Shown here: piece by piece, positions 2,271 to 31,516 of the stretch
Position numbering within the stretch: position 1 is the first letter of the stretch
Layout: every line of letters begins with the position of its first letter
Origin: an archaeon GW2011_AR10
GTDB taxonomy: Archaea; Iainarchaeota; Iainarchaeia; Iainarchaeales; GW2011-AR10
Assembly: GCA_000830275.1 (NCBI GenBank)
Contig: CP010424.1
Location: 1,140,001-1,172,000, forward strand
DNA: 32,000 nt
Direction: 5' to 3'
The notes under the pieces: generated by a model
Told to the model about the DNA's origin: nothing
Database searches by the model: none
Seen by the model: the letters and a program-made list of their open reading frames with translations, nothing else
Made by a program: the position numbers and the translations under genes

Positions 2271-5200
2271 ATGGGTAAAGCACAGGTGCCGGTTGAGCTG
2301 ATTGCAATTGTTGGCGCTGCAGTCTTGCTTGTAGCCATTGGAACCATTGCAGTAGTTGTTTTAAGTCTTCCTCCGACCCCTGTTCCAGTTGACGGCAATG
2401 GCGGTGTTCCATCGTCAATTGCTTGCTCTGATGGAACGCCTGCATCAAACTGCGCGGTTAAGCAGCCTTTTTACTGCGATGAAACAGGAAACCTTGTGGA
2501 AAACTTTTGCTTTGGTCTGGATAAGGCTGTTGGAACATCAGATGACTGCGGCTGCCAAGCGGAAACTGCATGCAGCAACAGCGGTGAATGCGTTCAAATA
2601 ACGTCGCTTGAGGAAATCAAGTGCTCTGACGGAACACTCGCTGGAAGCTGCTCTGCAACAAAACCTTTTTCGTGCGATGAAAACGGCGTGCTCAAGAACA
2701 GCTGCTCTGCTTGCGGCTGCCCGGATGGCTATTCGTGTGAAGCCAGTGGCTCATGTGCCCCAATTGCTCCAAGTGATGCTATTGCTTGCTCTGACGGCAC
2801 GTCTGTTGATTCGTGCTCTACCTTGAAGCCTTTTTACTGCAGCAGTTCAGGCAGCCTGTTAACAGAGTTCTGTTTTGGCCCGGACAGGGCTGTTGGAACA
2901 TCAGATGATTGCGGTTGCCCGCAATATTATTCCTGCAATTCCGAGGGAAGCTGTGAAAGCGATGTTATTTCAACCAGCAATTGTTCCGATTCCTCGCTGT
3001 TGAATACCTGCTCTCAACAGAAACCATTTTACTGCAACAGTGCAGGAACGCTTGTCAACAATTTTTGCTTTGGCCCGGACAGAGTTAGTGGAAACGCTGA
3101 TGACTGTGGTTGCGCTGCTGGTTCAGAGTGCCTTCCTGACGGCTCATGCATTGTTGCATTTGTTTTCAATTCCTGTTCTGACGGCACTGAATTCGGCAGC
3201 TGCTCTCAAACAAAACCCTTTCTGTGCAATGATGCAGGCATCCTTGAAAGCAACTGCTCTGTTTGCGGTTGCACGCAGGGCTTTGCATGCAATATTTCTG
3301 GAGCCTGCTCTCCCATTGTTCCCTCGCTTTACTGCTCTAATGGAACAAGGCTTAATTCCTGCTCTGTTCTTAAGCCAAAGTACTGCAACAGTAGCGGAGA
3401 ACTTGTTGATAACTGTGCAAGCTGCGGTTGCCCCGACAATTATTCTTGCCAGCAGAATGGCTTGTGTGCTCCAATTGTTCTGCCATCGCAGTGTTTGGGA
3501 GGAATTCCCATTGACTCTTGTTCTCAGCAAAAGCCGCTTTACTGCACTCCTGAAGGGCAGCTGGTAAATGATTGCAATAGGTGTGGTTGCCCGGAAAACC
3601 TGCCTGTATGCGCTTTTAATGGCGCGTGCCAGCCAGTCAGCCAACAGGAACCGGCTGGCTTTTTCGTGCAATTTGTTGGCGCAAACCCAACCACGTGGGA
3701 ATCAAAGACAACTGTTTTCAATTTCCCGCGAGGCACTCCAGAGAATGACAGCTGGACTGGAAGCAGAACAGCGTTGAAAGACTTGGAGCCAATGCCTGAC
3801 GGTTCAGGTTACTTCGAGTTAATGGATTACCCTTCCATTGGCGGAGCACAGATTCAGTCAAAGCCGCAGAGCATTGCAGCAAACCTGAATTTGGGTGACT
3901 GCTGGGCAAAACCGAAGCCAGTTAAACTGAAAGTCAACTCTTCCGTTACCGGTTACTACATTCTGCAGGAAACAGGGAGAGTTTGCGCTTCAAGGCTTAA
4001 TGCGTTCGGCAACACCTTAAACATTTCCCCTGCAAAAGCAGTTGACTTGGAAATTGTTGCAAATAGTTCCGGCAACGTTGTCGGCTACTACATTCTTGAT
4101 TCAACCGGAAAAATCCACAATTTTGGTGAAGCCGGTGCAACCATTGACTTGGAGCGCATTTCAACAAATGCTGAAGTGCTTGACCTGGAGTTAACTCCTT
4201 CCGGCAAAGGCGCATTTGTTCTTGACTCTCAAACAAGAATTCATGCAAGGGGAGATGCTGATGCGCTGTTTTTTTCTGGAAGCAATGCTCCCCCGGTTCT
4301 GCCGCAAGGGTACGCGCCAAAAAGAATTTCAATGCTGTTCAATGAAAGCGGCGGACTGCAAGGGTATTTTTTGTTCGATTCATTCGGAGTTGCTCATGCA
4401 AGGGGCATTGCAGTTGAATCAGATATTCCTGCGTGGATTTTCCAGAACTTTGAGGTTGATGGAGGAGTCCTTGCAGGAAACCTTCCTGATGCGGAAATAG
4501 TTGCGTTCCCTGCTTTTGCTGACTTGAGTGTTGATGAAAGAGATATTTCTGTTTCAGGGGGAAAAATTTCTGCAACCATTAAAGCAGAAAAAGGCAGGGC
4601 TTCTAACATCAAGGTGAGTTTTTTTGAGGGCGACCCTGATTTAGTGGGAAGACTGCTTGGCAGCCAAACAATTTCTGCATTGCAGGAAGGCCAGGCAAGT
4701 GTTGTGCAACTAAATTATGTTCCGCCTGCTTCTTCAGTGCATATTCACGTGATAGTTGACCCTGATAATACTGTTACGGAAACAAAAGAGCAGAACAATC
4801 GCGCCTACAAAGTTGTCAACAGGAACTTTTCCTCAAGGATAACCATTAATGGATTGAAATTAATGGATGGGGGCAGCACTTGGAACCTTCACGGAATAAT
4901 TTATTTTGGCCCACAGGGAACTCCAGGAGCTGGATTAAATTTTGGTGATTTGACTGAATGGGAGGCAAAGGCCAAAAAAGTCATTGCAGCTGACCTCAGT
5001 GAAATGCAGCGAAGAAACTTTAATGCGGTTTTTGTTTTCGGCAACTTGTGCAACGTAGGAACTGCTTTTCCGCTTTCAAAAGACAAAGTTAACGAGCTTG
5101 CAACAAACAGGTTCAAGTGGTTCATTGATCAGGCGGAACTGCGTGGCATAAGGGTTTTTGGCTCGTGCCTTAACGACGGCATTGTCCCAAAACTTGGCGG

Positions 5201-7136
5201 CGATGGGTTTTCATCAGTTAACGCTTTGCCTGCATTCAATGCCTCAATGAGAACCGCGTTGGTTGACAGGATTGAAAAATATGATGATGAATTGGCTGAC
5301 CACCTTGGTTTTGTTGCCGGGTTTTCTTTTCCCGACAAAATATCTGAAAGCCTAATTCCTGAGTGCAATAATGTGCCTGCATGCAAGCAGTCGTGGAACG
5401 ACTGGTTAATGCAGAAATACGGAACTTTTTCCAACCTGCAAACTGCCTGGGGAGGCAAGCTCAATGAAAGGGAAACCTCTTTCGGAACAATTGAGGCTTA
5501 TTGGAGGAACCCTTTTATTTTAAGGGACACTTTCGCTTATCCGAGGCGACTTGACTGGCTTGAATTCGAGTATGCAATGCAGGAAAGAACCGCTTCAATG
5601 CTTGCTTCAAGGATAACTTACCCTGACCTCACTTTCCTTGCAACAGATTTTGAATCCTTTTTTGGCGCATCGCACAAGCACGAGTTCACTGCTCCAAGCT
5701 TTGACTTTTTTGGGTCTGAAAACTATGCAGTGCCAACATTTCAGCAGGAAAGCCACCCCTTTGTTGGAAAAAATTTTGCATTTGACTTGGGTTATGCTGT
5801 TGCATTGGGAAAAATTTGGCAGTCATCAGGGAAACCATTCTATCAGGTTACGAGTTACGGGCTTGTAAACAGCAAACAGCAGGCTGCAAAGAATTACTAC
5901 AACTCAATTGTTCCTTTGCTGTTTACAACAGGGAATGCAGGAGTTTTTTACTGGGATTTTGGCATTCAGGCAGACAGGTTCAATCATTTCATCAGGAGTG
6001 GTTCACCGGAAACCGGCATAACCTACAACAGCAGCGAAGTGAATGATGCAATTGAGCTTTGGGGTTATGCTGCAAAGAATTTCGGCATTTACGCAGACAA
6101 CTTGAATGCAAGTGCACTCATTCTTGTCAACAGGCCTGAATTTATAATCGCTCCGGATGGTTCCGGCACTGATTACACAGGTCCAATGAATAAGGTTCCG
6201 GCAATTGTCAACAGCTTAATGCAGTTAGGGGTTCCTTTTGATGTAAAGTATTCTTCTGTTGCAGACAAAGTAATTTCTGTTTCAGAGCTTGGAAAATACA
6301 AATTGGTAATTTTTGTAGGAAAAGACGTTGACCTGGAGCACTTCGAGCCAGGAAATAACTTTGGGCAAAGCCTGCAGCAGTATGTTACTGGTGGTGGAAC
6401 ACTGTTTTTGTTCACCGAGCCAAAGCCAACGCACAGGAACGAGCACTATGTTGAGGTTTCAACCCCGGAAGTTCACTCTCTTGTATTAAACCACTCCGGA
6501 AGCGTTAACACCAGCTTTTCACAGCATGAATGGATTTTTAGTGCTGACCCAAATTGGTCTTCAGGCACAAAAACAATTCCTGTGAGGACTGATTTGCCTC
6601 CTTTTACAGTTAAGGTTGCTGAATTCAAGTTCGCAGACTACAATGGTTTGGCAGGGCAGCCCGGAGTAAAAGTTCTGGCAAGCAATTCAGAGGGAAAGCC
6701 GACTTTGCTTAGAATAACCAGTGGTTCCGGAAAAGTAATTCTTTCAGCTTACAGCACCGCGTTCTTAAGGGATTTTACTATGAGCGACAGCATGGTGTTG
6801 CCTGACTCCAGCGAGGCAAACTTTTTGTTTGAGGGCCTTGCAAGAGAAGCCGGCATTCCCGTTGAAAAATTAGGTTCAAAAGTTTACAACATTAAAGCAT
6901 CAGGGCAGAGGCTCATACTGAATGAATTCTCTGAGGGAAGCCAAGCAAAGACAATAACATTAAATGACTGCGGTTACACTCAGCAGTTTTCCCTGCCGCC
7001 CAACGGCGTGCTTCTGGTGAACCCAAGAGTGCTGGTTGGAAACCCAAGCTCACTGCCTGCAGGTGCAACAGTTGTCAAGCGCGGCCCTGACAATTTGGTG
7101 GTTGCCAGAATGCCTTCAGGCATAAGATGTGGTTAA
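2271..7136 (+). CDS. giant (1621 aa) membrane-anchored extracellular mosaic protein: N-terminal TM anchor, 7 Cys-rich modules, propeller-like repeats, CARDB-like domain, GH42-like glycosidase plus trimerisation-like module
   Basis: Single uninterrupted ORF. Residues 9-33 are hydrophobic (ELIAIVGAAVLLVAIGTIAVVVLSL). The Cys modules occupy aa 52-453. NIKVSFFEGDPDLVG...VVQLNYVPP...IHVIVDPDNTVTETKEQNN looks like CARDB. WNDWLMQKYGTFSNLQTAWGG and LGVPFDVKYS...LGKYKLVIFVGKD...YVTGGGTLFLF resemble the GH42 beta-galactosidase catalytic and trimerisation domains. Confidence 0.8.
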   Translation: MGKAQVPVELIAIVGAAVLLVAIGTIAVVVLSLPPTPVPVDGNGGVPSSIACSDGTPASNCAVKQPFYCDETGNLVENFCFGLDKAVGTSDDCGCQAETACSNSGECVQITSLEEIKCSDGTLAGSCSATKPFSCDENGVLKNSCSACGCPDGYSCEASGSCAPIAPSDAIACSDGTSVDSCSTLKPFYCSSSGSLLTEFCFGPDRAVGTSDDCGCPQYYSCNSEGSCESDVISTSNCSDSSLLNTCSQQKPFYCNSAGTLVNNFCFGPDRVSGNADDCGCAAGSECLPDGSCIVAFVFNSCSDGTEFGSCSQTKPFLCNDAGILESNCSVCGCTQGFACNISGACSPIVPSLYCSNGTRLNSCSVLKPKYCNSSGELVDNCASCGCPDNYSCQQNGLCAPIVLPSQCLGGIPIDSCSQQKPLYCTPEGQLVNDCNRCGCPENLPVCAFNGACQPVSQQEPAGFFVQFVGANPTTWESKTTVFNFPRGTPENDSWTGSRTALKDLEPMPDGSGYFELMDYPSIGGAQIQSKPQSIAANLNLGDCWAKPKPVKLKVNSSVTGYYILQETGRVCASRLNAFGNTLNISPAKAVDLEIVANSSGNVVGYYILDSTGKIHNFGEAGATIDLERISTNAEVLDLELTPSGKGAFVLDSQTRIHARGDADALFFSGSNAPPVLPQGYAPKRISMLFNESGGLQGYFLFDSFGVAHARGIAVESDIPAWIFQNFEVDGGVLAGNLPDAEIVAFPAFADLSVDERDISVSGGKISATIKAEKGRASNIKVSFFEGDPDLVGRLLGSQTISALQEGQASVVQLNYVPPASSVHIHVIVDPDNTVTETKEQNNRAYKVVNRNFSSRITINGLKLMDGGSTWNLHGIIYFGPQGTPGAGLNFGDLTEWEAKAKKVIAADLSEMQRRNFNAVFVFGNLCNVGTAFPLSKDKVNELATNRFKWFIDQAELRGIRVFGSCLNDGIVPKLGGDGFSSVNALPAFNASMRTALVDRIEKYDDELADHLGFVAGFSFPDKISESLIPECNNVPACKQSWNDWLMQKYGTFSNLQTAWGGKLNERETSFGTIEAYWRNPFILRDTFAYPRRLDWLEFEYAMQERTASMLASRITYPDLTFLATDFESFFGASHKHEFTAPSFDFFGSENYAVPTFQQESHPFVGKNFAFDLGYAVALGKIWQSSGKPFYQVTSYGLVNSKQQAAKNYYNSIVPLLFTTGNAGVFYWDFGIQADRFNHFIRSGSPETGITYNSSEVNDAIELWGYAAKNFGIYADNLNASALILVNRPEFIIAPDGSGTDYTGPMNKVPAIVNSLMQLGVPFDVKYSSVADKVISVSELGKYKLVIFVGKDVDLEHFEPGNNFGQSLQQYVTGGGTLFLFTEPKPTHRNEHYVEVSTPEVHSLVLNHSGSVNTSFSQHEWIFSADPNWSSGTKTIPVRTDLPPFTVKVAEFKFADYNGLAGQPGVKVLASNSEGKPTLLRITSGSGKVILSAYSTAFLRDFTMSDSMVLPDSSEANFLFEGLAREAGIPVEKLGSKVYNIKASGQRLILNEFSEGSQAKTITLNDCGYTQQFSLPPNGVLLVNPRVLVGNPSSLPAGATVVKRGPDNLVVARMPSGIRCG
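2424..3629 (+). repeat. seven tandem Cys-rich coding modules (45-56 aa each, 8 Cys each) inside the giant surface-protein gene
   Basis: The modules start at C52, C118, C173, C238, C302, C355 and C408. Consensus: CSDGTxxxxCSxxKPFYCxxxGxLxxx(C | FCFGxDxxxGxxDD)CGCxxxxxCxxxGxC. The long form (modules 1, 3, 4) carries a roughly 10-aa FGxDxxVGTSDD insertion. Confidence 0.85.
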
Positions 7137-7139
7137 AAA

Positions 7140-7295
7140 TCATTAATTTACAGAGCTGCCTTCGCCAAAAAACTTTTAAAAAAAGTTTTATCAAAAATGG
7201 GCTTCGCCATAACCTTTTAAAAAACCCTAGCAAAATCATAGATTTTGCGGGCCACGTAAACCCTTTTCAGCAAAAGGTTTGCGAAAAGTGCCTTC
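7140..7295. repeat. copy of a dispersed composite intergenic repeat, inverted relative to the 23630-23823 copy
   Basis: The reverse complement of 7229-7255 (GTGGCCCGCAAAATCTATGATTTTGCT) is identical 27/27 to 23761-23787. The reverse complement of 7275-7288 (CTTTTCGCAAACC) matches the start of the 23630 unit. Internal tandem motif: GCCTTCGCCAAAAAACTTTTAAAAAA / GCTTCGCCATAACCTTTTAAAAAA. Confidence 0.8.
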
Positions 7296-7302
7296 AATAC
7301 AT

Positions 7303-7725
7303 TTAGTCTTTAATTTCGAATTTATTATTGGGATAATCAAATAAAACCCTAAAATGTTCAAAAAAACTTGAGCCTATTATAATGTTTTCGTGAGATTTAG
7401 TTTTACTTAACTGGACAGCACATTTACATCTTATTTGGATTTTTTCGTTCCTTTTTTGGATTTTAATTGTTACATAAGATAAAGAAGTAGCAAAAGAACT
7501 TCCAGAATAAGACTTTGCATTTTTAGTATTTTTTGTATCGTATTCAAGTTTTAATTCGTCTGCAATTTCTTTTGGGATTAAAATGAATGGAGAACCTGTA
7601 TCCAATATTGCGGTAAAATTAAGGGCTATGCTATCTTTTCCTATTAAAGTAATAGGCACTATTGGCTCTTTTATATATGTGCTATCTCCAATATGAACGT
7701 GTTTACAATTAAATCGTAAATTCAT
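7303..7725 (-). CDS. retropepsin-like (clan AA) single-domain aspartic protease
   Basis: AILDTGSPFILIP contains the D-T/S-G catalytic loop and IIGSSFFEHF is the conserved hydrophobic-hydrophobic-Gly motif. The 140-aa length fits a homodimerising retropepsin fold. The gene lies in the AT-rich island, 10 nt downstream of the 69-aa gene. Confidence 0.7.
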   Translation of the reverse strand: MNLRFNCKHVHIGDSTYIKEPIVPITLIGKDSIALNFTAILDTGSPFILIPKEIADELKLEYDTKNTKNAKSYSGSSFATSLSYVTIKIQKRNEKIQIRCKCAVQLSKTKSHENIIIGSSFFEHFRVLFDYPNNKFEIKD

Positions 7726-7735
7726 AAGTTTAAGT

Positions 7736-7945
7736 TTATAGGTAACTTGCTGTTTTTTTTACTTTAGATATTAGAACTTTTGAAAGAGGTTTTCCTTCAT
7801 TTTTTACTTTTTCTAAGACTTTTTTAAGAGTTAATCCATGGGCTATTACATTTTTTTCGTAAATGGCTATCCATTCTCCCTCTTTATAATTATCAAAATT
7901 GTTGTCTAGAAAATATTGAAAACTTTTTTCAATTGTAAGTCCCAT
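7736..7945 (-). CDS. small protein resembling the DUF5678 family (partner of the retropepsin-like protease)
   Basis: 69 aa. NYKEGEWIAIYEKNVIAHGLTLKKVLEKVKNEG matches, from memory, the xGKWVAIxxxKVIxxGxxxxEVxxKA pattern of DUF5678-type proteins. It is the first gene of a two-gene operon with the protease. Confidence 0.5.
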   Translation of the reverse strand: MGLTIEKSFQYFLDNNFDNYKEGEWIAIYEKNVIAHGLTLKKVLEKVKNEGKPLSKVLISKVKKTASYL

Positions 7946-8164
7946 TATATCACATATAGTGTTTCAACATTTAAAAAGGTTTTGCCACACAAGAAACTAT
8001 TTACAAACCTTTTTTTTGGGTTTTCTGTTTACAAAGCACCTTTCTCACCTCCTTTTAGTTTTTTTCATAAATAAGCTGAATACTGGAGACTTAAGAAATC
8101 ATCAAGACCCTCAACATACAGACAAAAAAAGAAAAAATTCTATTAGAGTTAAGATAGTAAACTA

Positions 8165-8171
8165 TTTATAT
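8165..8171 (+). promoter_or_regulatory. TATA-box candidate for the 8193 gene
   Basis: TTTATAT is centred about 25 nt upstream of the ATG at 8193, consistent with a leaderless or short-leader archaeal promoter. Confidence 0.4.
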
Positions 8172-8192
8172 GAGGTCAAATAATATCTTTTA

Positions 8193-8465
8193 ATGTCAGA
8201 GCCAACATTAGAAGATTTGCAAGAGCTCGCCAGAAAAACAGAAATGCAACTCCACGAACTTAATAGGTCACGAGAGTTATTGGTGCGTGATGCAAGCCCC
8301 CATATGTCTAAGGACTATTTTACCCAATTAAAAGGACATATAGCTACAATAGACAAAAAAATTGAAGATGTAACAAAAAAATTAGAAAAATTAAGGACTA
8401 ATATAAAAAGAAGAAAGGGAATGTCAAAACCTCAAAGAAACCTCCCTAGAAAAAGAAGATTTTAA
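8193..8465 (+). CDS. hypothetical 90-aa coiled-coil protein with a strongly basic C-terminal tail
   Basis: ATG-initiated ORF in the AT-rich island with a TATA box upstream. The core is heptad-like (LEDLQELARKTEMQLHELNRSRELL; IATIDKKIEDVTKKLEKLRTNI) and the tail is RRKGMSKPQRNLPRKRRF. I recognise no family. Confidence 0.5.
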   Translation: MSEPTLEDLQELARKTEMQLHELNRSRELLVRDASPHMSKDYFTQLKGHIATIDKKIEDVTKKLEKLRTNIKRRKGMSKPQRNLPRKRRF

Positions 8466-8550
8466 ACAAAAGCCCACGTTCAAAACTTTTTCAACAGAGC
8501 CCCACTTCGGCGTAACCTTTTTTAACCAATTTATATTACTATTTTATATT

Positions 8551-11500
8551 ATGCCTTCGACTTCTCCTAAGAAAAAGAAAATTGTTTCGATTAAGAGCAC
8601 GGCCGAAATTGAGGTGCCGAAAAGGCTTGTTGACCAAGCGATAGGCCAAGAGCAAGGCGTAAGCATCATAAAGAAGGCAGCAGCACAGAAAAGAAACGTT
8701 TTGCTTGTTGGGCCGCCTGGCACAGGCAAAAGCATGCTGGCGCAGGCAATGTCTGAAATTCTCCCGTTGAGCGAGCTAAAGGACATTTTGATTTACCCAA
8801 ACCATGATGACCCTAACACTCCTAAGGTTGTAACCGTCAAGGCGGGGCAGGGCAAAAAGATTGTAGATGATGCAAGGCTTGAGTCTAGGACGCAGGAAGA
8901 CAGCATCAGGCTCATTGGCTTTATTGTGCCCATTGCAATGTTCCTTGTAAGCTTTGTGGTCTGGAAGCTTGAGTGGATTCCTGATGTTGTTTTTGCTGCA
9001 ACGCTGATTGTTGTTGCGTTCCTGTTCTTCGGCTTTGCGATTGGAGCGCAGGTTAGAACCAAGTCAACTGCTGTTGTGCCAAAGCTTTTGGTCAGTAATG
9101 CAAACAAGAAGGTTGCACCGTTCATTGAGGCAACTGGTGCAAGAGCGGGGGCACTGCTTGGTGACGTGCGTCATGACCCGCTTCAGTGCATTTTACCAGA
9201 CCAACTTGTTTCATTGCCTAATGGAAAACAAGTTCAGGCATCTGATTTGATTGATCGATTTTTTGGTGAGGAAAAGAAGACGGAGAATGTATTGAGTAAA
9301 GATGAAAAGTTCAATGTTCTTAGTGGTCTTGGCCAAAAATTCTGTTACTCAAATGCCACCGTTACGAAAGTTTTCAAGAGGGACTATGAAGGTGAAATAA
9401 TTGAGTTAAAGACAAAAAAGGGCTACCATATTAAGGTTACTCCTAATCACCCTGTGGCGGTTTTTTCTGAAAATGCAGAAGTTGAGTTCATTGAGGCAGC
9501 CAAAATTAAAGCAGGGTATTTCTCGGTTGCCCCAGAGAAACTGCCAATTGATGTGAAATCAAGGCTTGATGACGCCAAAATTGTTTTGCTTGCTGACATT
9601 TTGGCTGATGGGTACATAGGGAATAGGAATGTGCAGTTCAAATTGAGGAGAGAATTCAAGGTAAAAAAAATTGAGTCAGACATAACGAATGCCGGTTTGA
9701 AGTTCACTAAAAGACTTGACGGAAAAAACATCAGAATTGACATCAATTCAGCTGAGTTCGTGAAGTGGCTCAATTCCATTGGTGCTGTGTGTAACCGCTC
9801 AAAATCCATTCCCTCAATTATTTTCGATCAAACTCGCGAAAGCATAGAGTTGTTCATAATCAATTATGTATCGCTTGATGGTTATGTGAGCAAACAAGGG
9901 CAGTTTGAGCTTCTTTCAAAAGAGCTAATTCCTGATTTCATTCCGCTGTTGTTGAAGGCTGGTTTGAAGCCAAATTACAGGCCGCGCTTGGACAGAGGCT
10001 TCAAGAAAGGCAATCTCCAGCCAAGAATAACTTTCCAGGATGTTTCTTTCGCCCAAAAATATTTCAAGCTCACTGCAAATCCATTTCACAAGAAGAACTT
10101 AGAAAAATATCTTTCAAAAACAGCTTATCATCATGTGACTTTTGATGATATTATTCCGGTAAATTTCTCTCTGCTAGAAAAGTTCAGAGACAAAACAGGC
10201 CTTTCAAAAGCAAAAGTCCACGAAGAGTATTATGCCCTGAATAAAAGCGTTAAAACTTCAAAGAGTCCTACTCGGCAGTTCCTGCAAGAGATTGTTTCCA
10301 AGTTCATGAGCATTACAAACGACCCTGAGCTTTTCGGGTTGAGGGATGTGGTACAGGGCACATTTTCCTACGATGAGATAATTGAAGTGAATAGGGTAAA
10401 TTATTCTGGGCCTGTTTACAATATGACAACTTCCACTGGAACCTATTTGGTTAATCTTGTACTAACGCATAATTCAGGGGGCTTAGGCACGCCACCTCAT
10501 TTGAGGGTTGAGCCTGGAATGATTCACAGGGTTAATGGCGGAGTTCTTTTCTTGGACGAAGTTGCAACCCTTTCTCCAAAAGCACAGCAAGAGCTGTTAA
10601 CTGTAATGCAGGAGAAAAAGTACCCTATTACTGGCCAGAGCGAGATGAGTTCTGGAGCAATGACTAGAACTGAGCCTGTTCCCTGCGATTTCGTGCTTGT
10701 TGCTGCAGGCAACTATGAGGACATCCAAAAGATTCACCCTGCGTTGAGGAGCAGAATCAGGGGCTATGGTTACGAGGTTTACATTAATCAGGACATGGTG
10801 GACAACGCTGAAAACAGGGACAAGATTATACAGTTCATTGCACAGGAAGTGAAAAAGGATGGGAAAATACCTCATTTTTCGGCTGAAGCAGTTGAGTCAA
10901 TAATTTTTGAAGCCAGGCGCCGGGCCAGCAGAAAAAACAAGCTAACCTTGAGGCTGCGGGATTTGGGTGGCTTGATTAGGGCTGCTGGGGACATTGCAAA
11001 AGAAAAAGGCCAGAAGGCAGTTGAAGCACAAGACGTCTATGAAGCAAAAATGTCTGCTAAAACACTTGAACAGCAAATGGTTACAAAGATGCTGGAGGAA
11101 AAAAAGGATTACGATGTTTACTTGTTTGAGGGGAGCGCTGTTGGGAGAGTCAATGGCTTGGCGGTTTCAGGTGACGGTGATGCCGGATTGGTGCTGCCAA
11201 TTGAGGCAGAGGTTGCACCTGCTTCAAGCAAGTCCGAGGGCAAAATAATTGCAACAGGAAAACTTGGGGAAATAGCAAAGGAAGCAGTGCAAAATGTTTC
11301 AGCCTTAATTAAGAAACTCAGCGGAAAGGATGTAAGCGAGTTTGACATTCACATTCAGTTCCTGCAGACTTACTCTGGGGTTGAAGGTGACTCGGCTTCA
11401 GTGAGCGTTGCAACCGCGGTTATTTCTGCTTTGGAGGGCATTCCCATAAAGCAGAGCCTTGCAATGACAGGCAGCTTGAGCGTTAGGGGCGAAGTGCTTC

Positions 11501-11799
11501 CAGTGGGCGGGGTTACCGCAAAGGTTTCTGCTGCAATAGCTGCGGGCTTCAAGGAAGTGGTAATTCCAAAGGCAAACAAGGATGATGTTGTGCTGTCGAA
11601 AGAACAATTAAACAAAATAAATATTGTTGCGGTTTCAACTCTTTCAGAGGTTGTTGACAATGCATTCGTTAAATCCAAGAAAACAAATGTGCTGCTCAAG
11701 AACCTGGGCAAACTTTTCTCGCTTGAGGTGCCTTCCCTGCTTGAAGGCGAGCTCGGCAAGGGAATTGTAAAGGCAGGCTTTTTATCCAAGCAAAAGTAG
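8551..11799 (+). CDS. lonB: archaeal membrane-bound Lon protease (LonB), interrupted by an intein
   Basis: Walker A motif VLLVGPPGTGKSMLAQA. A two-helix TM insertion (IGFIVPIAMFLVSFVVW...VVFAATLIVVAFLFFGFAIGA) lies within the AAA+ module, as in LonB. The proteolytic domain has GDSASVSVATAVISAL (catalytic Ser) and VGGVTAKVSAA (Lys). The extein total of 653 aa is typical of LonB. Confidence 0.9.
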   Translation: MPSTSPKKKKIVSIKSTAEIEVPKRLVDQAIGQEQGVSIIKKAAAQKRNVLLVGPPGTGKSMLAQAMSEILPLSELKDILIYPNHDDPNTPKVVTVKAGQGKKIVDDARLESRTQEDSIRLIGFIVPIAMFLVSFVVWKLEWIPDVVFAATLIVVAFLFFGFAIGAQVRTKSTAVVPKLLVSNANKKVAPFIEATGARAGALLGDVRHDPLQCILPDQLVSLPNGKQVQASDLIDRFFGEEKKTENVLSKDEKFNVLSGLGQKFCYSNATVTKVFKRDYEGEIIELKTKKGYHIKVTPNHPVAVFSENAEVEFIEAAKIKAGYFSVAPEKLPIDVKSRLDDAKIVLLADILADGYIGNRNVQFKLRREFKVKKIESDITNAGLKFTKRLDGKNIRIDINSAEFVKWLNSIGAVCNRSKSIPSIIFDQTRESIELFIINYVSLDGYVSKQGQFELLSKELIPDFIPLLLKAGLKPNYRPRLDRGFKKGNLQPRITFQDVSFAQKYFKLTANPFHKKNLEKYLSKTAYHHVTFDDIIPVNFSLLEKFRDKTGLSKAKVHEEYYALNKSVKTSKSPTRQFLQEIVSKFMSITNDPELFGLRDVVQGTFSYDEIIEVNRVNYSGPVYNMTTSTGTYLVNLVLTHNSGGLGTPPHLRVEPGMIHRVNGGVLFLDEVATLSPKAQQELLTVMQEKKYPITGQSEMSSGAMTRTEPVPCDFVLVAAGNYEDIQKIHPALRSRIRGYGYEVYINQDMVDNAENRDKIIQFIAQEVKKDGKIPHFSAEAVESIIFEARRRASRKNKLTLRLRDLGGLIRAAGDIAKEKGQKAVEAQDVYEAKMSAKTLEQQMVTKMLEEKKDYDVYLFEGSAVGRVNGLAVSGDGDAGLVLPIEAEVAPASSKSEGKIIATGKLGEIAKEAVQNVSALIKKLSGKDVSEFDIHIQFLQTYSGVEGDSASVSVATAVISALEGIPIKQSLAMTGSLSVRGEVLPVGGVTAKVSAAIAAGFKEVVIPKANKDDVVLSKEQLNKINIVAVSTLSEVVDNAFVKSKKTNVLLKNLGKLFSLEVPSLLEGELGKGIVKAGFLSKQK
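9187..10473 (+). mobile_element. 429-aa intein with a LAGLIDADG homing-endonuclease domain inserted in lonB
   Basis: The N-junction is GDVRHDPLQ / CILPDQLVSLPNGK (Cys1, residue 213) and the C-junction is LVNLVLTHN / SGGLGTPPH (His-Asn then Ser+1, Asn at residue 641). Block B is VTPNHPV. Two LAGLIDADG-type motifs are present (LLADILADGYIG and INYVSLDGYVS). Removing it restores the contiguous LonB sequence DPLQ-SGGLGTPPHLRV. Confidence 0.85.
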
Positions 11800-17752: not shown

Positions 17753-17840
17753 ATAGCAAACAGCTTATTTTTTGAACTTTTTATTTCTGTTTGCTAGATG
17801 CAAAACGCAATTTCAATGCTCAATTACTTAAGCGTTTTGC
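17753..17840. repeat. copy A of an ~88-bp long-range inverted repeat containing two 9-bp-stem hairpins
   Basis: Its reverse complement aligns to 31429-31516 at roughly 90% identity (about 8 mismatches or indels by hand alignment). The hairpins are AGCAAACAG-N23-CTGTTTGCT (17755-17795) and GCAAAACGC-N23-GCGTTTTGC (17800-17840). The second includes the rpiB stop codon and its last 5 codons. Confidence 0.85.
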
Positions 17841-18276
17841 CATGGATTGCGTCAATTTTTTTTACGCGCCTGCGGTGCCTTTCCTCTAAGCTAAAATCCG
17901 TGCCCAGAAAGGAGTCAACCATTTCCAGTGCTTCCTTTTCCTTGCTTACTCTTGCTCCCAGCGATAAAACATTTGCGTTGTTGTGCTCCCTCGCCATCCT
18001 TGCCATGTACTCGTTTGTTGCCAGAGCAGCCCGAATTCCTTTGACCTTGTTGGCTGCCATTGCAGTGCCAATGCCTGTTCCACACACAACAATGCCAATG
18101 CTTTTAGGGCTTTTAGCCACTTTTTCAGCCACTTTAACCGCGAAATCAGGGTAATCGCAGCTTTTCTCGCTGTCAGTGCCCTCATCCACGACCTCAAACC
18201 CTTTTCTTTTGAGGTGTTCTTTGATTTTTTCTTTCAGCCTGAAACCGGCGTGGTCTGCTCCAACGATGACGCGCAT
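17824..18276 (-). CDS. rpiB: ribose-5-phosphate isomerase B (RpiB/LacAB family)
   Basis: MRVIVGADHAGFRLKEKIKEHL...GIVVCGTGIGTAMAANKVKGIRAAL...AREHNNANVLSLGARV is the canonical RpiB sequence pattern, including the catalytic Cys in CGTGIG. Confidence 0.9.
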   Translation of the reverse strand: MRVIVGADHAGFRLKEKIKEHLKRKGFEVVDEGTDSEKSCDYPDFAVKVAEKVAKSPKSIGIVVCGTGIGTAMAANKVKGIRAALATNEYMARMAREHNNANVLSLGARVSKEKEALEMVDSFLGTDFSLEERHRRRVKKIDAIHGKTLK

Positions 18277-18351: not shown

Positions 18352-19074
18352 TTGATTGAACTGAAGAACACTTCCCCTTTAAGGAAGAGCATTGACGCCA
18401 TTTCAGCATTCATTTCAGAGGGAAACTTTCGCTTCAACGAGCAGGGCATTCACTTCAAGGCAATTGACCCGAGCCAGATTCTCCTCGTGAACCTTTTTAT
18501 GGACAAGAAGCACTTTGACTCTTTCAGCGTTGAGCCGACATTTGTCGGGGTTGATTTAGTGGAATTAAGCAAAATCATGGCTAGGAGCCTTCCAACCGAC
18601 AAGCTGAGAATAGATTTAACTGACTCTGAAATGAAGGTGAAGCTTGAAGGAGACTTCCACAGGAGCTTCAAGCTCCCATTAATTGATGTGAGCGAGGACG
18701 AAATAAACCTTCCAAGTAAAACCTATGATGCCTCTATTGAAATCAGCGCGCGCATAATGAAGGAAGCCTTGAAGGATGCTTCCTTGTTTGGTTCAAGCGT
18801 TATATTCAAAGTAAAAGGCAGCCAGTTTTTTGTTGAGGCGCGCGGCAGCCAAGGAACCCTGGATGCGGTTTCAAAGGAAACGAAGGGAATAAAAGTGAAG
18901 GCTTCAAAGGACGTAACTGCAAAATTTTCTCTTAACTTCCTGCAGAACATCATAAAAGAAGCAGACGCAGAGGAAAAAATTTTGCTTGAGCTGAAGACTG
19001 ACGCGCCAATGAAAGTTTCTTACAACATCGGCAAAAACAGGATTGAATTCTTTTTAGCCCACATGCTCCTATAA
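18352..19074 (+). CDS. DNA polymerase sliding clamp PCNA, paralog 2 (divergent)
   Basis: RKSIDAISAFISEGNFRFNEQGIHFKAIDPSQILLVNLFM...FKLPLIDV...MKVSYNIGKNRIEFFLAHM is collinear with paralog 1 at roughly one-third identity by eye. It has a TTG start and lacks the acidic C-terminal tail. Confidence 0.8.
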   Translation: MIELKNTSPLRKSIDAISAFISEGNFRFNEQGIHFKAIDPSQILLVNLFMDKKHFDSFSVEPTFVGVDLVELSKIMARSLPTDKLRIDLTDSEMKVKLEGDFHRSFKLPLIDVSEDEINLPSKTYDASIEISARIMKEALKDASLFGSSVIFKVKGSQFFVEARGSQGTLDAVSKETKGIKVKASKDVTAKFSLNFLQNIIKEADAEEKILLELKTDAPMKVSYNIGKNRIEFFLAHMLL

Positions 19075-19278
19075 ACGGAGAGGTCCGTTTACGACCTATA
19101 TGTGTGCCATCTTCGATGGCACGGTAATTTTGCTCCGTTCGGCTGAAACCTCAGCCGGCAAGGTGTGGAATACTCGTTTCACTCGTATTCCACTGGCTCG
19201 CTTCGCTCGCAAAACGGAGAGGTCCGTTTACGACCTATATGTGTGCCATCTTCGATGGCACGGTAATTTTGCTCCGTT
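19073..19278. repeat. two perfect 67-bp direct repeats (19073-19139 and 19212-19278) separated by a 72-bp hairpin-rich spacer
   Basis: AAACGGAGAGGTCCGTTTACGACCTATATGTGTGCCATCTTCGATGGCACGGTAATTTTGCTCCGTT occurs twice with no mismatch. Each copy contains the 8-3-8 palindrome GTGCCATC-TTC-GATGGCAC. Confidence 0.9.
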
Positions 19279-23403: not shown

Positions 23404-23466
23404 ATGGCAGCAAAAAAGAAATCATCTTCAAGAAAATCAAGCAGCAGATCTAAATCTAGAAGATAA
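23404..23466 (+). CDS. candidate micro-ORF encoding a 20-aa Lys/Ser/Arg-rich peptide (MAAKKKSSSRKSSSRSKSRR)
   Basis: GGGAGGT (23391-23397) lies 6 nt upstream of the ATG. An in-frame alternative ATG is at 23386. An A/T-rich TATA-like stretch (23364-23385) lies upstream, and a hairpin plus T-tract follows directly downstream. The ORF is too short to judge by composition. Confidence 0.35.
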   Translation: MAAKKKSSSRKSSSRSKSRR

Positions 23467-23483
23467 GCGAATTTTTTGATTTT

Positions 23484-23595: not shown

Positions 23596-23823
23596 GTAAT
23601 TCCACTCCACTGTTTCCAGCGAAGCTGCGTTTTCGCAAACCTCCTCGTAAAACCTTTGGTTTTGCCGAAGGCAATTTTTCGCAAGCCTCCTTGCAAAACC
23701 TTTGGTTTTGCGAGACCCGCAAAATCTATGATTTTGCTTGGGTTTCCTAAAAGGCTTTATGTGGCCCGCAAAATCTATGATTTTGCTTGGGTTTCTTAAA
23801 AGGTTTTAAAACGGTGGAATTAC
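23596..23823. repeat. MITE-like 228-bp element: 10-bp perfect terminal inverted repeats enclosing two internally duplicated units
   Basis: The terminal inverted repeats (TIRs) are GTAATTCCAC (23596-23605) and GTGGAATTAC (23814-23823). Unit A occurs twice (23630-23665 and 23676-23711, 33/36 identical). Unit B occurs twice (23716-23754 and 23765-23803, 38/39 identical). Unit B also occurs inverted at 7229-7255. Confidence 0.7.
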
Positions 23824-31267: not shown

Positions 31268-31377
31268 GCGAATGACATTAATAATTAAACATTTATTGCT
31301 CATTTGCTATATGTAAAAGACAATATATTTTGCCATATGTAAAAGACAATTATTTTCCAAACAAGAATGTCTTTTAC
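31268..31377. promoter_or_regulatory. inverted repeats and direct repeats in the divergent promoter region
   Basis: An imperfect inverted repeat, GCGAATGAC-N21-GCTCATTTGC, spans 31268-31307. A 16-nt direct repeat, ATATGTAAAAGACAAT, occurs at 31309 and 31335. The hairpin GTAAAAGACA-N19-TGTCTTTTAC spans 31339-31377 and is followed by TATATTATATTAA. Confidence 0.45.
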
Positions 31378-31428
31378 TATATTATATTAAGCTTATCAAT
31401 ATTATACTGTTTTGGTTTTATATTTATA

Positions 31429-31516
31429 GCAAAACGCTTAAGTAATTGAACATTGAATTGCGTTTTGCATCTAGCAACCAGCAGCATAAAGTTCAAAAAT
31501 ATAAGCTGTTTGCTAT
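31429..31516. repeat. copy B of the ~88-bp long-range inverted repeat
   Basis: GCAAAACGCTTAAGTAATTGAACATTGAATTGCGTTTTGCATCTAGCAACCAGCAGCATAAAGTTCAAAAATATAAGCTGTTTGCTAT matches the reverse complement of 17753-17840. It includes a relic of the rpiB 3' end (KTLK-stop) with no ORF attached. Confidence 0.85.

What the first reader, a model, noticed from the sequence alone, without database searches (positions are those of the whole stretch)
7137..8550. AT-rich 1.4-kb island with an uncharacterised small-protein / retropepsin-like protease pair and a basic coiled-coil protein
The composition drops abruptly between the giant surface-protein gene and lonB. Hand counts of 60-nt lines give 25-30% G+C inside the island (7381-7440 and 7801-7860) against about 45% in a flanking gene (6601-6660).

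The island holds a minus-strand two-gene operon with only a 10-nt gap. The first gene encodes a 69-aa DUF5678-like protein (7736-7945). The second encodes a 140-aa single-domain aspartic protease with an intact DTG loop (7303-7725). A 90-aa coiled-coil protein with an RRKG...PRKRRF tail is transcribed divergently (8193-8465).

Both borders carry members of the short dispersed repeat family. The left border has GCTTCGCCATAACCTTTTAAAAAACC and GGCCACGTAAACCCTTTTCAGCAAAAGG. The right border has GCCCACGTTCAAAACTTTTTCAACAGAG and CTTCGGCGTAACCTTTTTTAACC.

A small protein tightly coupled to a protease is organised like a toxin-antitoxin, addiction or protease-triggered defence module. I know of no established function for this pairing. 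It is the best candidate in this window for an undescribed accessory system.
Basis: partly seen in the sequence, partly recalled or inferred. Interest (0 to 1): 0.7.

Follow-up and report, generated by a model that had tools for sequence, protein, structure and literature searches.

The report
Mobile small-protein plus retropepsin-like protease pair
A foreign-looking 1.4-kb AT-rich insert in a DPANN archaeon carries a small DUF5678 protein gene tightly coupled to a retrovirus-type aspartic protease gene; this pair recurs as a unit in many archaea and bacteria, has never been studied, and is organised like a toxin-antitoxin module.

Summary
The observation largely holds. Window 7137-8550 has 29.8% G+C against 44% elsewhere (z = -6.6). 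GC3 is 14-19% in the two minus-strand genes against 44-54% in host genes. The genes are a 69-aa DUF5678 protein and, 10 nt downstream, a 140-aa clan-AA protease with an intact DTGS site. Its model matches the retropepsin fold.

The pair is a conserved unit. All 19 protease relatives found in named genomes have a DUF5678-type ORF directly upstream; 11 are from DPANN or uncultured archaea and 8 from bacteria. Of 59 distinct, assessable DUF5678 loci in metagenomes, 46 have the protease directly downstream, mostly with a +1 or -4 nt gap. The two genes' distance matrices correlate (Mantel r = 0.87). Neighbours differ between loci, and the pair is lower in G+C than its flanks in 19 of 20 loci.

Two claims fail. 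The 90-aa coiled-coil ORF is a species-restricted ORFan, not a partner. Only the left border carries a real dispersed repeat; the right-border "repeat" looks like the lonB promoter.

My best reading is a mobile toxin-antitoxin-like inhibitor/protease module. Function is inferred only. I found no literature on the pair.

The parts
7137..8550 (.). AT-rich island between the CARDB surface-protein gene (2271-7136, +) and the intein-containing lonB (8551-11799, +)
   Evidence: 29.8% G+C against a mean of 44.1% (sd 2.2%) for other 1414-nt windows, z = -6.6. Flanking genes were identified.
7736..7945 (-). First gene of the pair: a 69-aa DUF5678 protein, the proposed neutralising or regulatory partner
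   Evidence: Pfam PF18929 at 1.2e-8, 35.1 bits, above the 23.2 threshold. 100% identical to a protein of archaeon GW2011_AR10. The AF2 model has mean pLDDT 75 with helix-strand-strand-helix-strand order and a lower-confidence C-terminal tail. No PDB fold match. Best BFVD matches are DUF5678 proteins of pandoraviruses. GC3 is 0.14.
7726..7735 (-). 10-nt intercistronic spacer
   Evidence: Read directly from the sequence. In homologous pairs the gap is mostly +1 or -4 nt.
7303..7725 (-). Second gene of the pair: a 140-aa single-domain clan-AA (retropepsin-like) aspartic protease, the proposed effector
   Evidence: Pfam Asp, gag-asp_proteas and Asp_protease_2 all score above threshold. TIGR03698 scores 29.5 bits, below its 57.35 cutoff. 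D42-T-G-S and G118-S-S-F-F-E-H are conserved. AF2 mean pLDDT is 84. Top Foldseek hits are Rickettsia APRc and the RSV, HTLV-1 and FIV proteases, at E = 3e-5 to 4e-4. GC3 is 0.19.
7971..7981 (-). Promoter-like AACCTTTTTAA motif (BRE/TATA type) 36 nt upstream of the DUF5678 ATG
   Evidence: The same motif at the same distance precedes lonB. The promoter function is inferred, not tested.
8193..8465 (+). Divergent 90-aa ORF with a coiled-coil-like body and a basic tail. It is an ORFan inside the island and not a conserved partner of the pair.
   Evidence: Only one homologue cluster was found, at 98% identity from the same population. Family hits are weak coiled-coil noise only. Genes beside the pair in other genomes are unrelated to it. 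GC3 is 0.28.
7211..7267 (+). Copy of a dispersed hairpin-containing intergenic repeat at the left border
   Evidence: 93% complementary to 23749-23805, E = 1e-18. It contains the hairpin GCAAAATC-ATA-GATTTTGC. Contig L073 leaves the window's sequence inside this repeat region.
8514..8524 (+). It is probably the lonB promoter.
   Evidence: One search shows no significant repeat anywhere in 8466-8550.

Best explanation
The island is a horizontally acquired insert in the genome of the DPANN archaeon GW2011_AR10. Its functional cargo is a self-contained, translationally coupled two-gene module.

Proposed mechanism:
- The first gene makes a small cytoplasmic DUF5678 protein. The second makes a retropepsin-like aspartic protease that should act as a homodimer, with one catalytic Asp per subunit.
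- The DUF5678 protein is the protease's dedicated partner and keeps it inactive. It would do this with its flexible, hydrophobic-ended C-terminal tail, either by occupying the substrate cleft or by interfering with the dimer-interface strands.
- When the small protein is lost or degraded, the free protease cleaves cellular or viral proteins.
- The pair would therefore behave like a type II toxin-antitoxin, addiction or abortive-infection module.

Shown: the gene pair, the fold, the intact active site, strict co-occurrence, co-divergence, mobility and foreign composition.
Inferred: binding, inhibition, toxicity and the trigger.

The 90-aa ORF and the left-border repeat are passengers or context, not parts of the module.
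For: Protease to partner: all 19 protease relatives found in one-genome-per-species contigs have a small same-strand ORF directly upstream. Eleven are from DPANN or uncultured archaea. Eight are from Paceibacterota/Parcubacteria, Acidobacteriota/Bryobacterales and Planctomycetales. The 11 archaeal ORFs hit a DUF5678 HMM at 1e-17 to 1e-41. Two of the four bacterial ORFs scanned pass Pfam's DUF5678 threshold, and the rest share the G-x-W-V/I-A-L core motif.

Partner to protease: a DNA pattern for the DUF5678 core found 84 stretches of metagenome DNA, of which 80 loci were analysed, and all 80 are DUF5678 by HMM. After removing duplicates there are 46 pairs, 13 solo genes and 8 cases with no room on the contig. 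D[ST]G[AS] is intact in 44 of the 46 pairs. Gaps are mostly +1 or -4 nt.

Asymmetry: I saw no solo protease, but 13 solo DUF5678 genes and one decayed protease (L097).

Co-divergence: Mantel r = 0.87 over 47 distinct pairs, with 0 of 2000 permutations reaching it.

Mobility:
- Close homologues sit next to CysRS and a Na/H exchanger, or next to proteasome-alpha and Rpp14, or here next to a surface protein and LonB.
- No neighbour recurs across loci. MNT, DUF5615/PIN, DUF433, Fic and integrase genes are scattered among the neighbours.
- The pair has lower G+C than its flanks in 19 of 20 loci. In this window GC3 is 0.14-0.19 against 0.44-0.54 in host genes.

Fold: the protease model matches retropepsins. 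The DUF5678 tail has lower model confidence.

Precedents:
- Relatives of the protease form the B gene of the untested two-gene phage-defence candidates PDC-M08 and PDC-M52. Hits are weak for this protein (3e-4) and reach 4e-8 for the Paceibacterota homologue.
- The metalloprotease RhpP is toxic alone and is neutralised by the small protein RhpC (PMC6490944).
Against: - There are no experimental data on any member.
- DUF5678 shows no recognisable DNA-binding fold of the kind usual in type II antitoxins, and no PDB match at all.
- DUF5678 has no hit in PADLOC.
- The pair is absent from the plasmid, phage and IMG/VR collections searched.
- Most neighbours are housekeeping genes.
- Each named genome gave one locus only, though the scan was pattern-limited.
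- The absence of solo proteases is equally expected if the protease simply needs the small protein in order to function.
- The protease survey used peptide patterns from this clade, so it says nothing about more distant prokaryotic retropepsins.
- No empty site was found to prove insertion at this locus.
Confidence: 0.45

Rival explanations
1. This is a regulated-proteolysis pair and not a selfish module. DUF5678 would be an activator, adaptor, chaperone or dedicated substrate of the protease. The pair would perform a specific cellular processing task, as the retropepsin-like RimB does on polyglutamylated RpsF.
For: - Strict co-occurrence and co-divergence fit this model equally well.
- Neighbours are mostly housekeeping genes.
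- The pair is retained in the small genomes of DPANN and CPR organisms.
- Characterised bacterial retropepsin-like enzymes work with partner proteins (PMC11957791).
- The extreme C-terminus of DUF5678 is conserved in a way that could mark a cleavage or docking site.
Against: - The distribution is patchy and cross-domain.
- Close homologues sit in different contexts.
- G+C is consistently lower than the flanks.
- Thirteen solo DUF5678 genes were seen but no solo protease.
- Toxin-antitoxin genes are sprinkled nearby.
Confidence: 0.3
2. The pair is a relic or cargo of a virus or other mobile element. It would be, for example, a gag-pro-like processing cassette in which the protease matures a virion or element protein.
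For: - Retropepsins are typical of retroelements.
- The protease hits gag-asp_proteas and retroviral proteases by fold.
- DUF5678 proteins occur in pandoraviruses and uncultured Myoviridae.
- The composition is foreign.
- One short contig shows an alternative junction at a repeat.
Against: - No capsid, reverse transcriptase, integrase or terminase gene lies in the island.
- Integrase-family genes appear beside only 2 of the 67 distinct metagenome loci surveyed (128 neighbour ORFs scanned).
- No relative was found in IMG/VR, phage records or plasmids.
- The PHROGs hits are not significant.
- The module is only about 0.65 kb and stands alone in varied chromosomal contexts.
Confidence: 0.1
3. This is a three-gene system in which the divergent 90-aa basic coiled-coil protein regulates or partners the pair.
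For: - The ORF lies inside the same low-G+C island (GC3 0.28).
- It is divergently placed 247 nt from the pair with its own TATA-like sequence.
- It is present in all contigs of this population.
Against: - It has no homologue outside the population among 5.8 billion clusters.
- It has no family support.
- The genes beside the pair in L001 and L005 are unrelated to it.
- No third gene recurs in 67 + 13 surveyed loci.
Confidence: 0.03
4. This is ordinary core sequence whose low G+C is a local fluctuation and not an acquisition.
For: Every contig of this species population has the same arrangement, and no empty site was found.
Against: - z = -6.6 for the island, and GC3 is 0.14-0.19 against 0.44-0.54.
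- The closest homologues (74% identity) lie at a different locus in another archaeon from the same samples.
- The pair is G+C-poor relative to its flanks in 19 of 20 genomes.
Confidence: 0.03

Closest known systems
Prokaryotic single-domain clan-AA peptidases (COG5550 / TIGR03698 'clan_AA_DTGF' type; Pfam Asp_protease_2). The structurally characterised example is Rickettsia APRc.
   Same: - A single retropepsin-like domain of about 130-140 aa.
- A hydrophobic-hydrophobic-D-T/S-G-S/A active-site motif.
- The predicted fold matches APRc and retroviral proteases.
- A homodimeric mechanism is expected from established knowledge of the family.
   Different: - It scores below the TIGR03698 cutoff, 29.5 against 57.35 bits.
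- There is no sequence-level match to any solved structure.
- It has a conserved N-terminal beta extension (M-x-F/L-x-F/Y-x-x-K).
- No hydrophobic N-terminal segment is visible in the sequence, so it is probably cytoplasmic. By recollection, not checked here, APRc is membrane-embedded.
- It is obligately paired with DUF5678. The one review read here says 'little is known' about these prokaryotic peptidases and mentions no partner (PMC2642776).
Type II toxin-antitoxin modules
   Same: - A two-gene operon with the small gene first.
- +1 or -4 nt coupling.
- Patchy cross-domain distribution, variable context and low G+C.
- Orphan copies of the first gene but not of the second.
- Neighbours include MNT, PIN/DUF5615-DUF433, RelE-like and Fic genes.
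   Different: - The putative toxin is an aspartic protease, which I do not know from any established toxin-antitoxin family (my own knowledge).
- The comprehensive 2009 survey does not mention it.
- The putative antitoxin has no recognisable DNA-binding domain.
- Nothing has been tested.
PADLOC phage-defence candidates PDC-M08 and PDC-M52. These are untested two-gene cassettes found embedded in BREX, DISARM or type I RM systems.
   Same: Both are written as two-gene cassettes FAM_A>>FAM_B, and the PADLOC models named 'B' for both candidates are what the protease hits. This protease gives 3e-4 to PDC-M52B and 1.5e-3 to PDC-M08B, near full length. The Paceibacterota homologue gives 4e-8 to PDC-M08B.
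   Different: - The scores are weak.
- None of the five DUF5678 proteins tested hits any PADLOC model, so the A partner belongs to a different family.
- Those candidates were defined in RefSeq bacteria by embedding in known defence systems. The present loci are not embedded in such systems.
RhpP/RhpC of Pseudomonas savastanoi (a protease plus a small neutralising partner)
   Same: - A protease whose expression alone harms the cell.
- Toxicity requires the active site.
- Toxicity is suppressed by a small co-operonic cytoplasmic protein that binds the protease (PMC6490944).

This is the mechanistic precedent for the model proposed here.
   Different: - RhpP is a metalloprotease, not an aspartic one.
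- The small gene lies downstream of the protease gene.
- RhpC targets the protease to the periplasm.
- There is no homology to either protein here.
Aspartyl protease associated with type III CRISPR loci in Sulfolobales (PADLOC PEPT_D; Saci_1895 family)
   Same: It is a small archaeal retropepsin-domain protein in a defence context (PMC3973734), and gives a weak hit at 1.3e-3.
   Different: - It is about 100 aa.
- It is linked to cas genes, not to DUF5678.
- No CRISPR or cas genes lie near the island.

Membership tests
Pfam DUF5678 (PF18929) | Score above the curated gathering threshold for the family HMM | tested here: met
   35.1 bits against a threshold of 23.2, E = 1.2e-8, residues 22-62. 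The database cluster is also annotated as DUF5678.
Clan AA retropepsin-like aspartic peptidase | Family HMM match above threshold | tested here: met
   Asp 32.1 bits against 19.9, gag-asp_proteas 30.0 against 28.2, and Asp_protease_2 29.4 against 24.3.
Clan AA retropepsin-like aspartic peptidase | Catalytic Asp in a hydrophobic-hydrophobic-D-T/S-G-S/A motif | tested here: met
   A-I-L-D42-T-G-S. D, G and S are invariant in 16 sequences. The motif is intact in 44 of 46 paired homologues.
Clan AA retropepsin-like aspartic peptidase | Retropepsin fold | tested here: met
   AF2 mean pLDDT is 84. Foldseek top hits are APRc and the RSV, HTLV-1, FIV and EIAV proteases, with probability 1.00 and E = 3e-5 to 4e-4.
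Clan AA retropepsin-like aspartic peptidase | Homodimerisation and proteolytic activity | not testable with these tools
   This needs biochemistry or a multimer prediction.
NCBIfam TIGR03698 (clan_AA_DTGF subfamily) | Score above the curated cutoff | tested here: not met
   29.5 bits against a cutoff of 57.35. The protein is related but not a member.
Type II toxin-antitoxin system | Two small co-directional, tightly coupled genes | tested here: met
   The gap is 10 nt here, and mostly +1 or -4 nt in 58 homologous pairs.
Type II toxin-antitoxin system | Mobility: patchy distribution, variable context and atypical composition | tested here: met
Type II toxin-antitoxin system | Antitoxin with a DNA-binding domain (RHH, HTH, AbrB or Phd) for autoregulation | tested here: not met
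   No such Pfam or NCBIfam hit and no PDB fold or sequence match. This feature is usual for the family but not universal.
Type II toxin-antitoxin system | The toxin arrests growth, and the antitoxin binds and neutralises it | not testable with these tools
   This needs expression and rescue experiments and an interaction assay.
PADLOC PDC-M08 / PDC-M52 candidates | Both cassette genes (A and B) match the system's HMMs | tested here: not met
   The B component gives only weak hits, at 3e-4 and 1.5e-3. The A component gives no hit for any of five DUF5678 proteins.
Genomic island acquired by site-specific integration | Compositional deviation from the host | tested here: met
   z = -6.6, and GC3 is 0.14-0.28 against 0.44-0.54.
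Genomic island acquired by site-specific integration | Flanking direct repeats, a tRNA target or an integrase | tested here: not met
   There is no tRNA in the window and no integrase ORF in the island. A repeat is present at the left border only.
Genomic island acquired by site-specific integration | An empty site in close relatives | not tested
   Only same-population contigs were available, and all carry the island.

The most novel reading that the evidence does not exclude
The DUF5678/retropepsin pair is the first toxin-antitoxin or abortive-infection type module whose effector is an aspartic protease. It would be widespread in the ultra-small DPANN archaea and CPR bacteria. The small protein's disordered, hydrophobic-ended C-terminal tail would act as a built-in inhibitor, either a substrate mimic or a blocker of dimerisation. 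This would be a prokaryotic counterpart of the way retroviral proteases are held in check before maturation.
Probability: 0.3. Interest if true: 0.75.

Novelty: new variant of a known kind. Interest (0 to 1): 0.55.

Why it matters
Prokaryotic retropepsin-like proteases are almost uncharacterised. One review states that "little is known" about them.

This work shows that one clade of them is an obligate two-gene unit with a DUF protein. The unit moves between archaea and bacteria. That gives both families a concrete, testable functional hypothesis: an inhibitor or antitoxin paired with a protease effector.

If the hypothesis is confirmed, three things follow:
- A new enzymatic class would be added to toxin-antitoxin and defence effectors.
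- There would be a natural protein inhibitor of a retropepsin fold.
- There would be a marker of horizontal exchange among DPANN and CPR organisms.

If the pair instead proves to be a housekeeping processing system, DUF5678 would still be de-orphaned.

Tried and rejected
1. The 90-aa ORF as a partner. It has one homologue cluster at 98% identity only, and the neighbours of the pair elsewhere are unrelated to it. Rejected.

2. Repeats flanking both sides of the island. A short-word blastn of both borders against the window found a significant repeat on the left only.

3. Known RNA or tRNA in the window. None was found.

4. A viral, plasmid or phage origin. There were no hits in IMG/VR, plasmids or phage records.

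5. A metagenome scan using DUF5678 alignments. I replaced it with a hand-made degenerate DNA pattern.

6. Fusion (Rosetta-stone) evidence. Longer DUF5678 proteins are tandem duplications, not protease fusions. The one run-on, P0121, looks like a truncated or frameshifted call, so I did not rely on it.

7. A functional link to lonB or the proteasome. The pair lies next to lonB here and next to proteasome-alpha in L005. Neither gene recurred among the top 25 neighbour families listed for 184 neighbour ORFs, so I treat this as coincidence.

8. My recollection that RhpP was an aspartic protease was wrong. The paper says it is a metalloprotease. I keep it only as a mechanistic analogue.

9. The identity of the PDC-M08 and PDC-M52 'A' genes. 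The supplement gives only family numbers.

10. An empty-site test. It was not possible with the remaining quotas.
Full report
**Origin and observation**

The 69-aa protein is 100% identical to a protein of "archaeon GW2011_AR10", on a 1.24-Mb contig. The window is therefore from that DPANN archaeon.

The island is real. G+C in 300-nt windows falls to 27-34% between about 7150 and 8650, and is 42-49% on either side. The stretch 7137-8550 has 29.8% G+C. All other 1414-nt windows average 44.1% (sd 2.2%, minimum 38.3%), so z = -6.6. Third-codon-position G+C is 0.14 for DUF5678, 0.19 for the protease and 0.28 for the 90-aa ORF. Eight host genes have 0.44-0.54.

The flanks are core genes:
- a metallo-beta-lactamase-fold (tRNase Z-like) gene;
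- a 1621-aa CARDB surface protein;
- lonB with an intein;
- a DUF373 gene.

**The genes**

The 69-aa protein passes Pfam's DUF5678 threshold, 35.1 bits against 23.2.

The 140-aa protein passes the thresholds of Asp, gag-asp_proteas and Asp_protease_2. It falls below the cutoff of NCBIfam TIGR03698, 29.5 bits against 57.35. In an alignment with 15 homologues, D42, G44, S45 and the G118-S-S-F-F-E-H block are conserved.

The AlphaFold2 model of the protease has mean pLDDT 84. It matches Rickettsia APRc and the RSV, HTLV-1, FIV and EIAV proteases with Foldseek probability 1.00. It carries an extra N-terminal beta segment that is conserved across the family.

The DUF5678 model has mean pLDDT 75. 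Its secondary structure runs helix, strand, strand, helix, strand, with a lower-confidence C-terminal tail. It has no match in the PDB by fold or by profile. Its best matches among predicted viral structures are DUF5678 proteins of pandoraviruses and uncultured Myoviridae.

Neither protein shows a hydrophobic N-terminal segment on direct reading, so both are probably cytoplasmic.

**Is the pair a unit?**

*From the protease side.* Close homologues (74% and 55% identity) have a DUF5678 gene 10-11 nt upstream, but between quite different neighbours. One sits between CysRS and a Na/H exchanger, the other between proteasome-alpha and RNase P Rpp14.

A scan of one genome per species gave 19 loci. 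Eleven are from DPANN or uncultured archaea, including a Diapherotrites genome. Eight are bacterial: Paceibacterota/Parcubacteria, Bryobacterales/Acidobacteriota and Planctomycetales. Every one has a small same-strand ORF abutting or overlapping the protease start.
- The 11 archaeal ORFs hit a DUF5678 HMM at 1e-17 to 1e-41.
- The Paceibacterota and Planctomycetales ORFs pass Pfam's threshold.
- The Parcubacteria and Acidobacteriota/Bryobacterales ORFs share the same G-x-W-V/I-A-L core and tail pattern. Of the two of these scanned, one scored weakly against Pfam and one gave no hit.

*From the DUF5678 side.* A degenerate DNA pattern for the motif G-E-W-[VI]-A-I-x4-[VI]-[VI]-A-H-G found 84 stretches of metagenome DNA, of which 80 loci were analysed. 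All 80 are DUF5678 by HMM. Of these, 58 have the protease immediately downstream, 8 end too soon to tell, and 14 lack it.

After removing duplicates there are 46 pairs, 13 solo genes and 8 cases with no room. That is 78% of assessable loci. The catalytic motif is intact in 44 of the 46 pairs. One of the solo cases, L097, is a frameshifted and mutated protease remnant.

*Co-divergence and family size.* Over 47 distinct pairs, the two genes' distance matrices correlate with Mantel r = 0.87, and 0 of 2000 permutations reach that value. The genes are therefore inherited and diverge together.

A DUF5678 profile built from this clade's close relatives found only 156 cluster representatives among 1.84 billion proteins. 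Nearly all are stand-alone proteins of 60-80 aa, with a few tandem duplications.

**Mobility**
- Apart from near-identical genomes, the loci share nothing but the pair.
- The 128 neighbours scanned around 67 distinct metagenome loci have no recurrent family. The most frequent are MNT nucleotidyltransferase (3), DUF5615/PIN (2), integrase (2), DUF433 and Fic, scattered among housekeeping genes.
- Fifty-six neighbours in named genomes show no recurrence either.
- Solo DUF5678 genes lie next to HEPN/MNT-like and RelE-like genes in L081, L084 and L116 (from direct reading of the sequences).
- The pair is poorer in G+C than its flanks in 19 of 20 loci, by up to 13 points. The difference here is about 16 points.
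- No relatives were found in IMG/VR, plasmid or phage collections.

**What does not belong**

The 90-aa ORF has only one homologue cluster, at 98% identity and from the same population. It has no family support beyond coiled-coil noise. The genes beside the pair elsewhere are unrelated to it. It is probably a real gene, but a lineage-specific one that shares the island.

Of the "border repeats", only the left one is real. Window 7211-7267 is 93% complementary to 23749-23805 (E = 1e-18). That target is part of a tandem array of 46-49-nt hairpin-bearing units between the P-type ATPase and primase small-subunit genes.

The right border has no significant repeat. Its AACCTTTTTTA motif lies 37 nt upstream of the lonB ATG. 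The same motif lies 36 nt upstream of the DUF5678 ATG. I read both as BRE/TATA-type promoters, which is an inference.

All contigs of this population carry the island at this site. The exception is the short contig L073. It is 99.9% identical over the pair, then leaves the window's sequence inside the repeat region and runs into an unrelated 283-aa ORF. This is either a rearrangement at the repeat or an assembly chimera.

**Mechanism**

I commit to an inhibitor/effector model of the toxin-antitoxin type. DUF5678 binds the protease and holds it inactive, and loss of DUF5678 frees a cytoplasmic protease.

For the model:
- the gene order and translational coupling;
- the mobility and foreign composition;
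- the asymmetry of orphans: DUF5678 is seen alone, the protease never;
- co-divergence of the two genes;
- a flexible C-terminal tail ending in two or three hydrophobic residues, whose type tracks the protease subfamily;
- weak but near-full-length similarity of the protease to the 'B' gene models of PDC-M08 and PDC-M52, two untested two-gene phage-defence candidates;
- the RhpP/RhpC precedent, in which a protease that is toxic alone is neutralised by a small partner.

Against the model:
- DUF5678 has no DNA-binding fold;
- DUF5678 has no PADLOC hit;
- the pair is absent from plasmids and phages;
- the neighbours are mostly housekeeping genes;
- the orphan asymmetry is equally expected if the protease simply depends on its partner.

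I put about 0.9 on "conserved, mobile two-gene unit" and about 0.45 on the toxin-antitoxin-like mechanism. The main rival is a dedicated regulated-proteolysis pair, at about 0.3.

**Novelty**

Searches of the held literature for DUF5678, COG5550, retropepsin with antitoxin, and related terms found no description of this pairing. The one review that mentions these prokaryotic peptidases says little is known about them.

Both families are already catalogued, so the genes themselves are not new. What is new is the demonstration of an obligate, cross-domain, mobile pairing, and the hypothesis of an aspartic-protease effector. I rate it a new variant of a known kind of system, a two-gene mobile module of toxin-antitoxin or defence type. 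I rate it of moderate interest until tested.

Noticed in passing
window 19073-19139 and 19212-19278: Two perfect copies of a 67-nt element lie 139 nt apart (start to start) between the PCNA and primase large-subunit genes. Each copy folds into a closed stem with a 9-bp inner hairpin (MFE -26.4 kcal/mol, z = -4.0). There is no Rfam match.
   Followed up: partly
window 23630-23805: A tandem array of 46-49-nt units, each with a hairpin (GCAAAATC-nnn-GATTTTGC or AAAACC-AAA-GGTTTT), lies in the 620-nt gap between the P-type ATPase and primase small-subunit genes. One unit recurs inverted at the island's left border.
   Followed up: partly
window 17753-17843 and 31426-31516: A second dispersed element of about 90 nt is present as an inverted pair 13.6 kb apart, at 89-95% identity. 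Related 22-nt direct repeats lie at 31303-31350 (rows I3, I5, I14 and D12).
   Followed up: no
L073 (metagenome contig Ga0208977_1018556), 1-830 against 831-1885: The contig is 99.9% identical to window 7997-7168, which covers the pair and the repeat. It then diverges inside the repeat region into an unrelated 283-aa ORF with TPEQRSE repeats and no Pfam hit. This is either an alternative genomic junction at the repeat or an assembly chimera.
   Followed up: partly
window 7971-7981 (-) and 8514-8524 (+): The same AACCTTTTWWA motif lies 36 nt upstream of the DUF5678 start and 37 nt upstream of the lonB start. The only other copy in the window is inside the left-border repeat. It looks like a shared BRE/TATA-type promoter for short-leader transcripts.
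   Followed up: partly
window 8551-11799: lonB is 1082 aa long and carries an intein, seen as a Pfam Intein_splicing hit on the identical gene product.
   Followed up: no
window 2424-3571: The N-terminal part of the 1621-aa CARDB surface protein is built from cysteine-rich repeats of about 53-66 aa, seen as DNA repeat families at 159-363-nt spacing.
   Followed up: no
BFVD matches to the DUF5678 model; proteins P0045, P0083, P0145: DUF5678 proteins occur in pandoraviruses and uncultured Myoviridae. Some longer proteins from unidentified organisms carry two tandem DUF5678 domains behind a shared N-terminal helix. These have no visible protease link.
   Followed up: no
L001 4293-4722; L084 68-531; L081 1998-3040; L035 3350-3577: Other toxin-antitoxin-type genes lie close to the pair or to solo DUF5678 genes. 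They are DUF2283/DUF4258, a RelE-like pair, a HEPN/MNT-like pair and an AbrB/MazE-like ORF. Some of these identifications are from sequence reading only.
   Followed up: partly
window 23405-23467 (+): A 20-codon ORF encodes the very basic peptide MAAKKKSSSRKSSSRSKSRR, in the intergenic region upstream of the repeat array. It was read directly and not evaluated.
   Followed up: no
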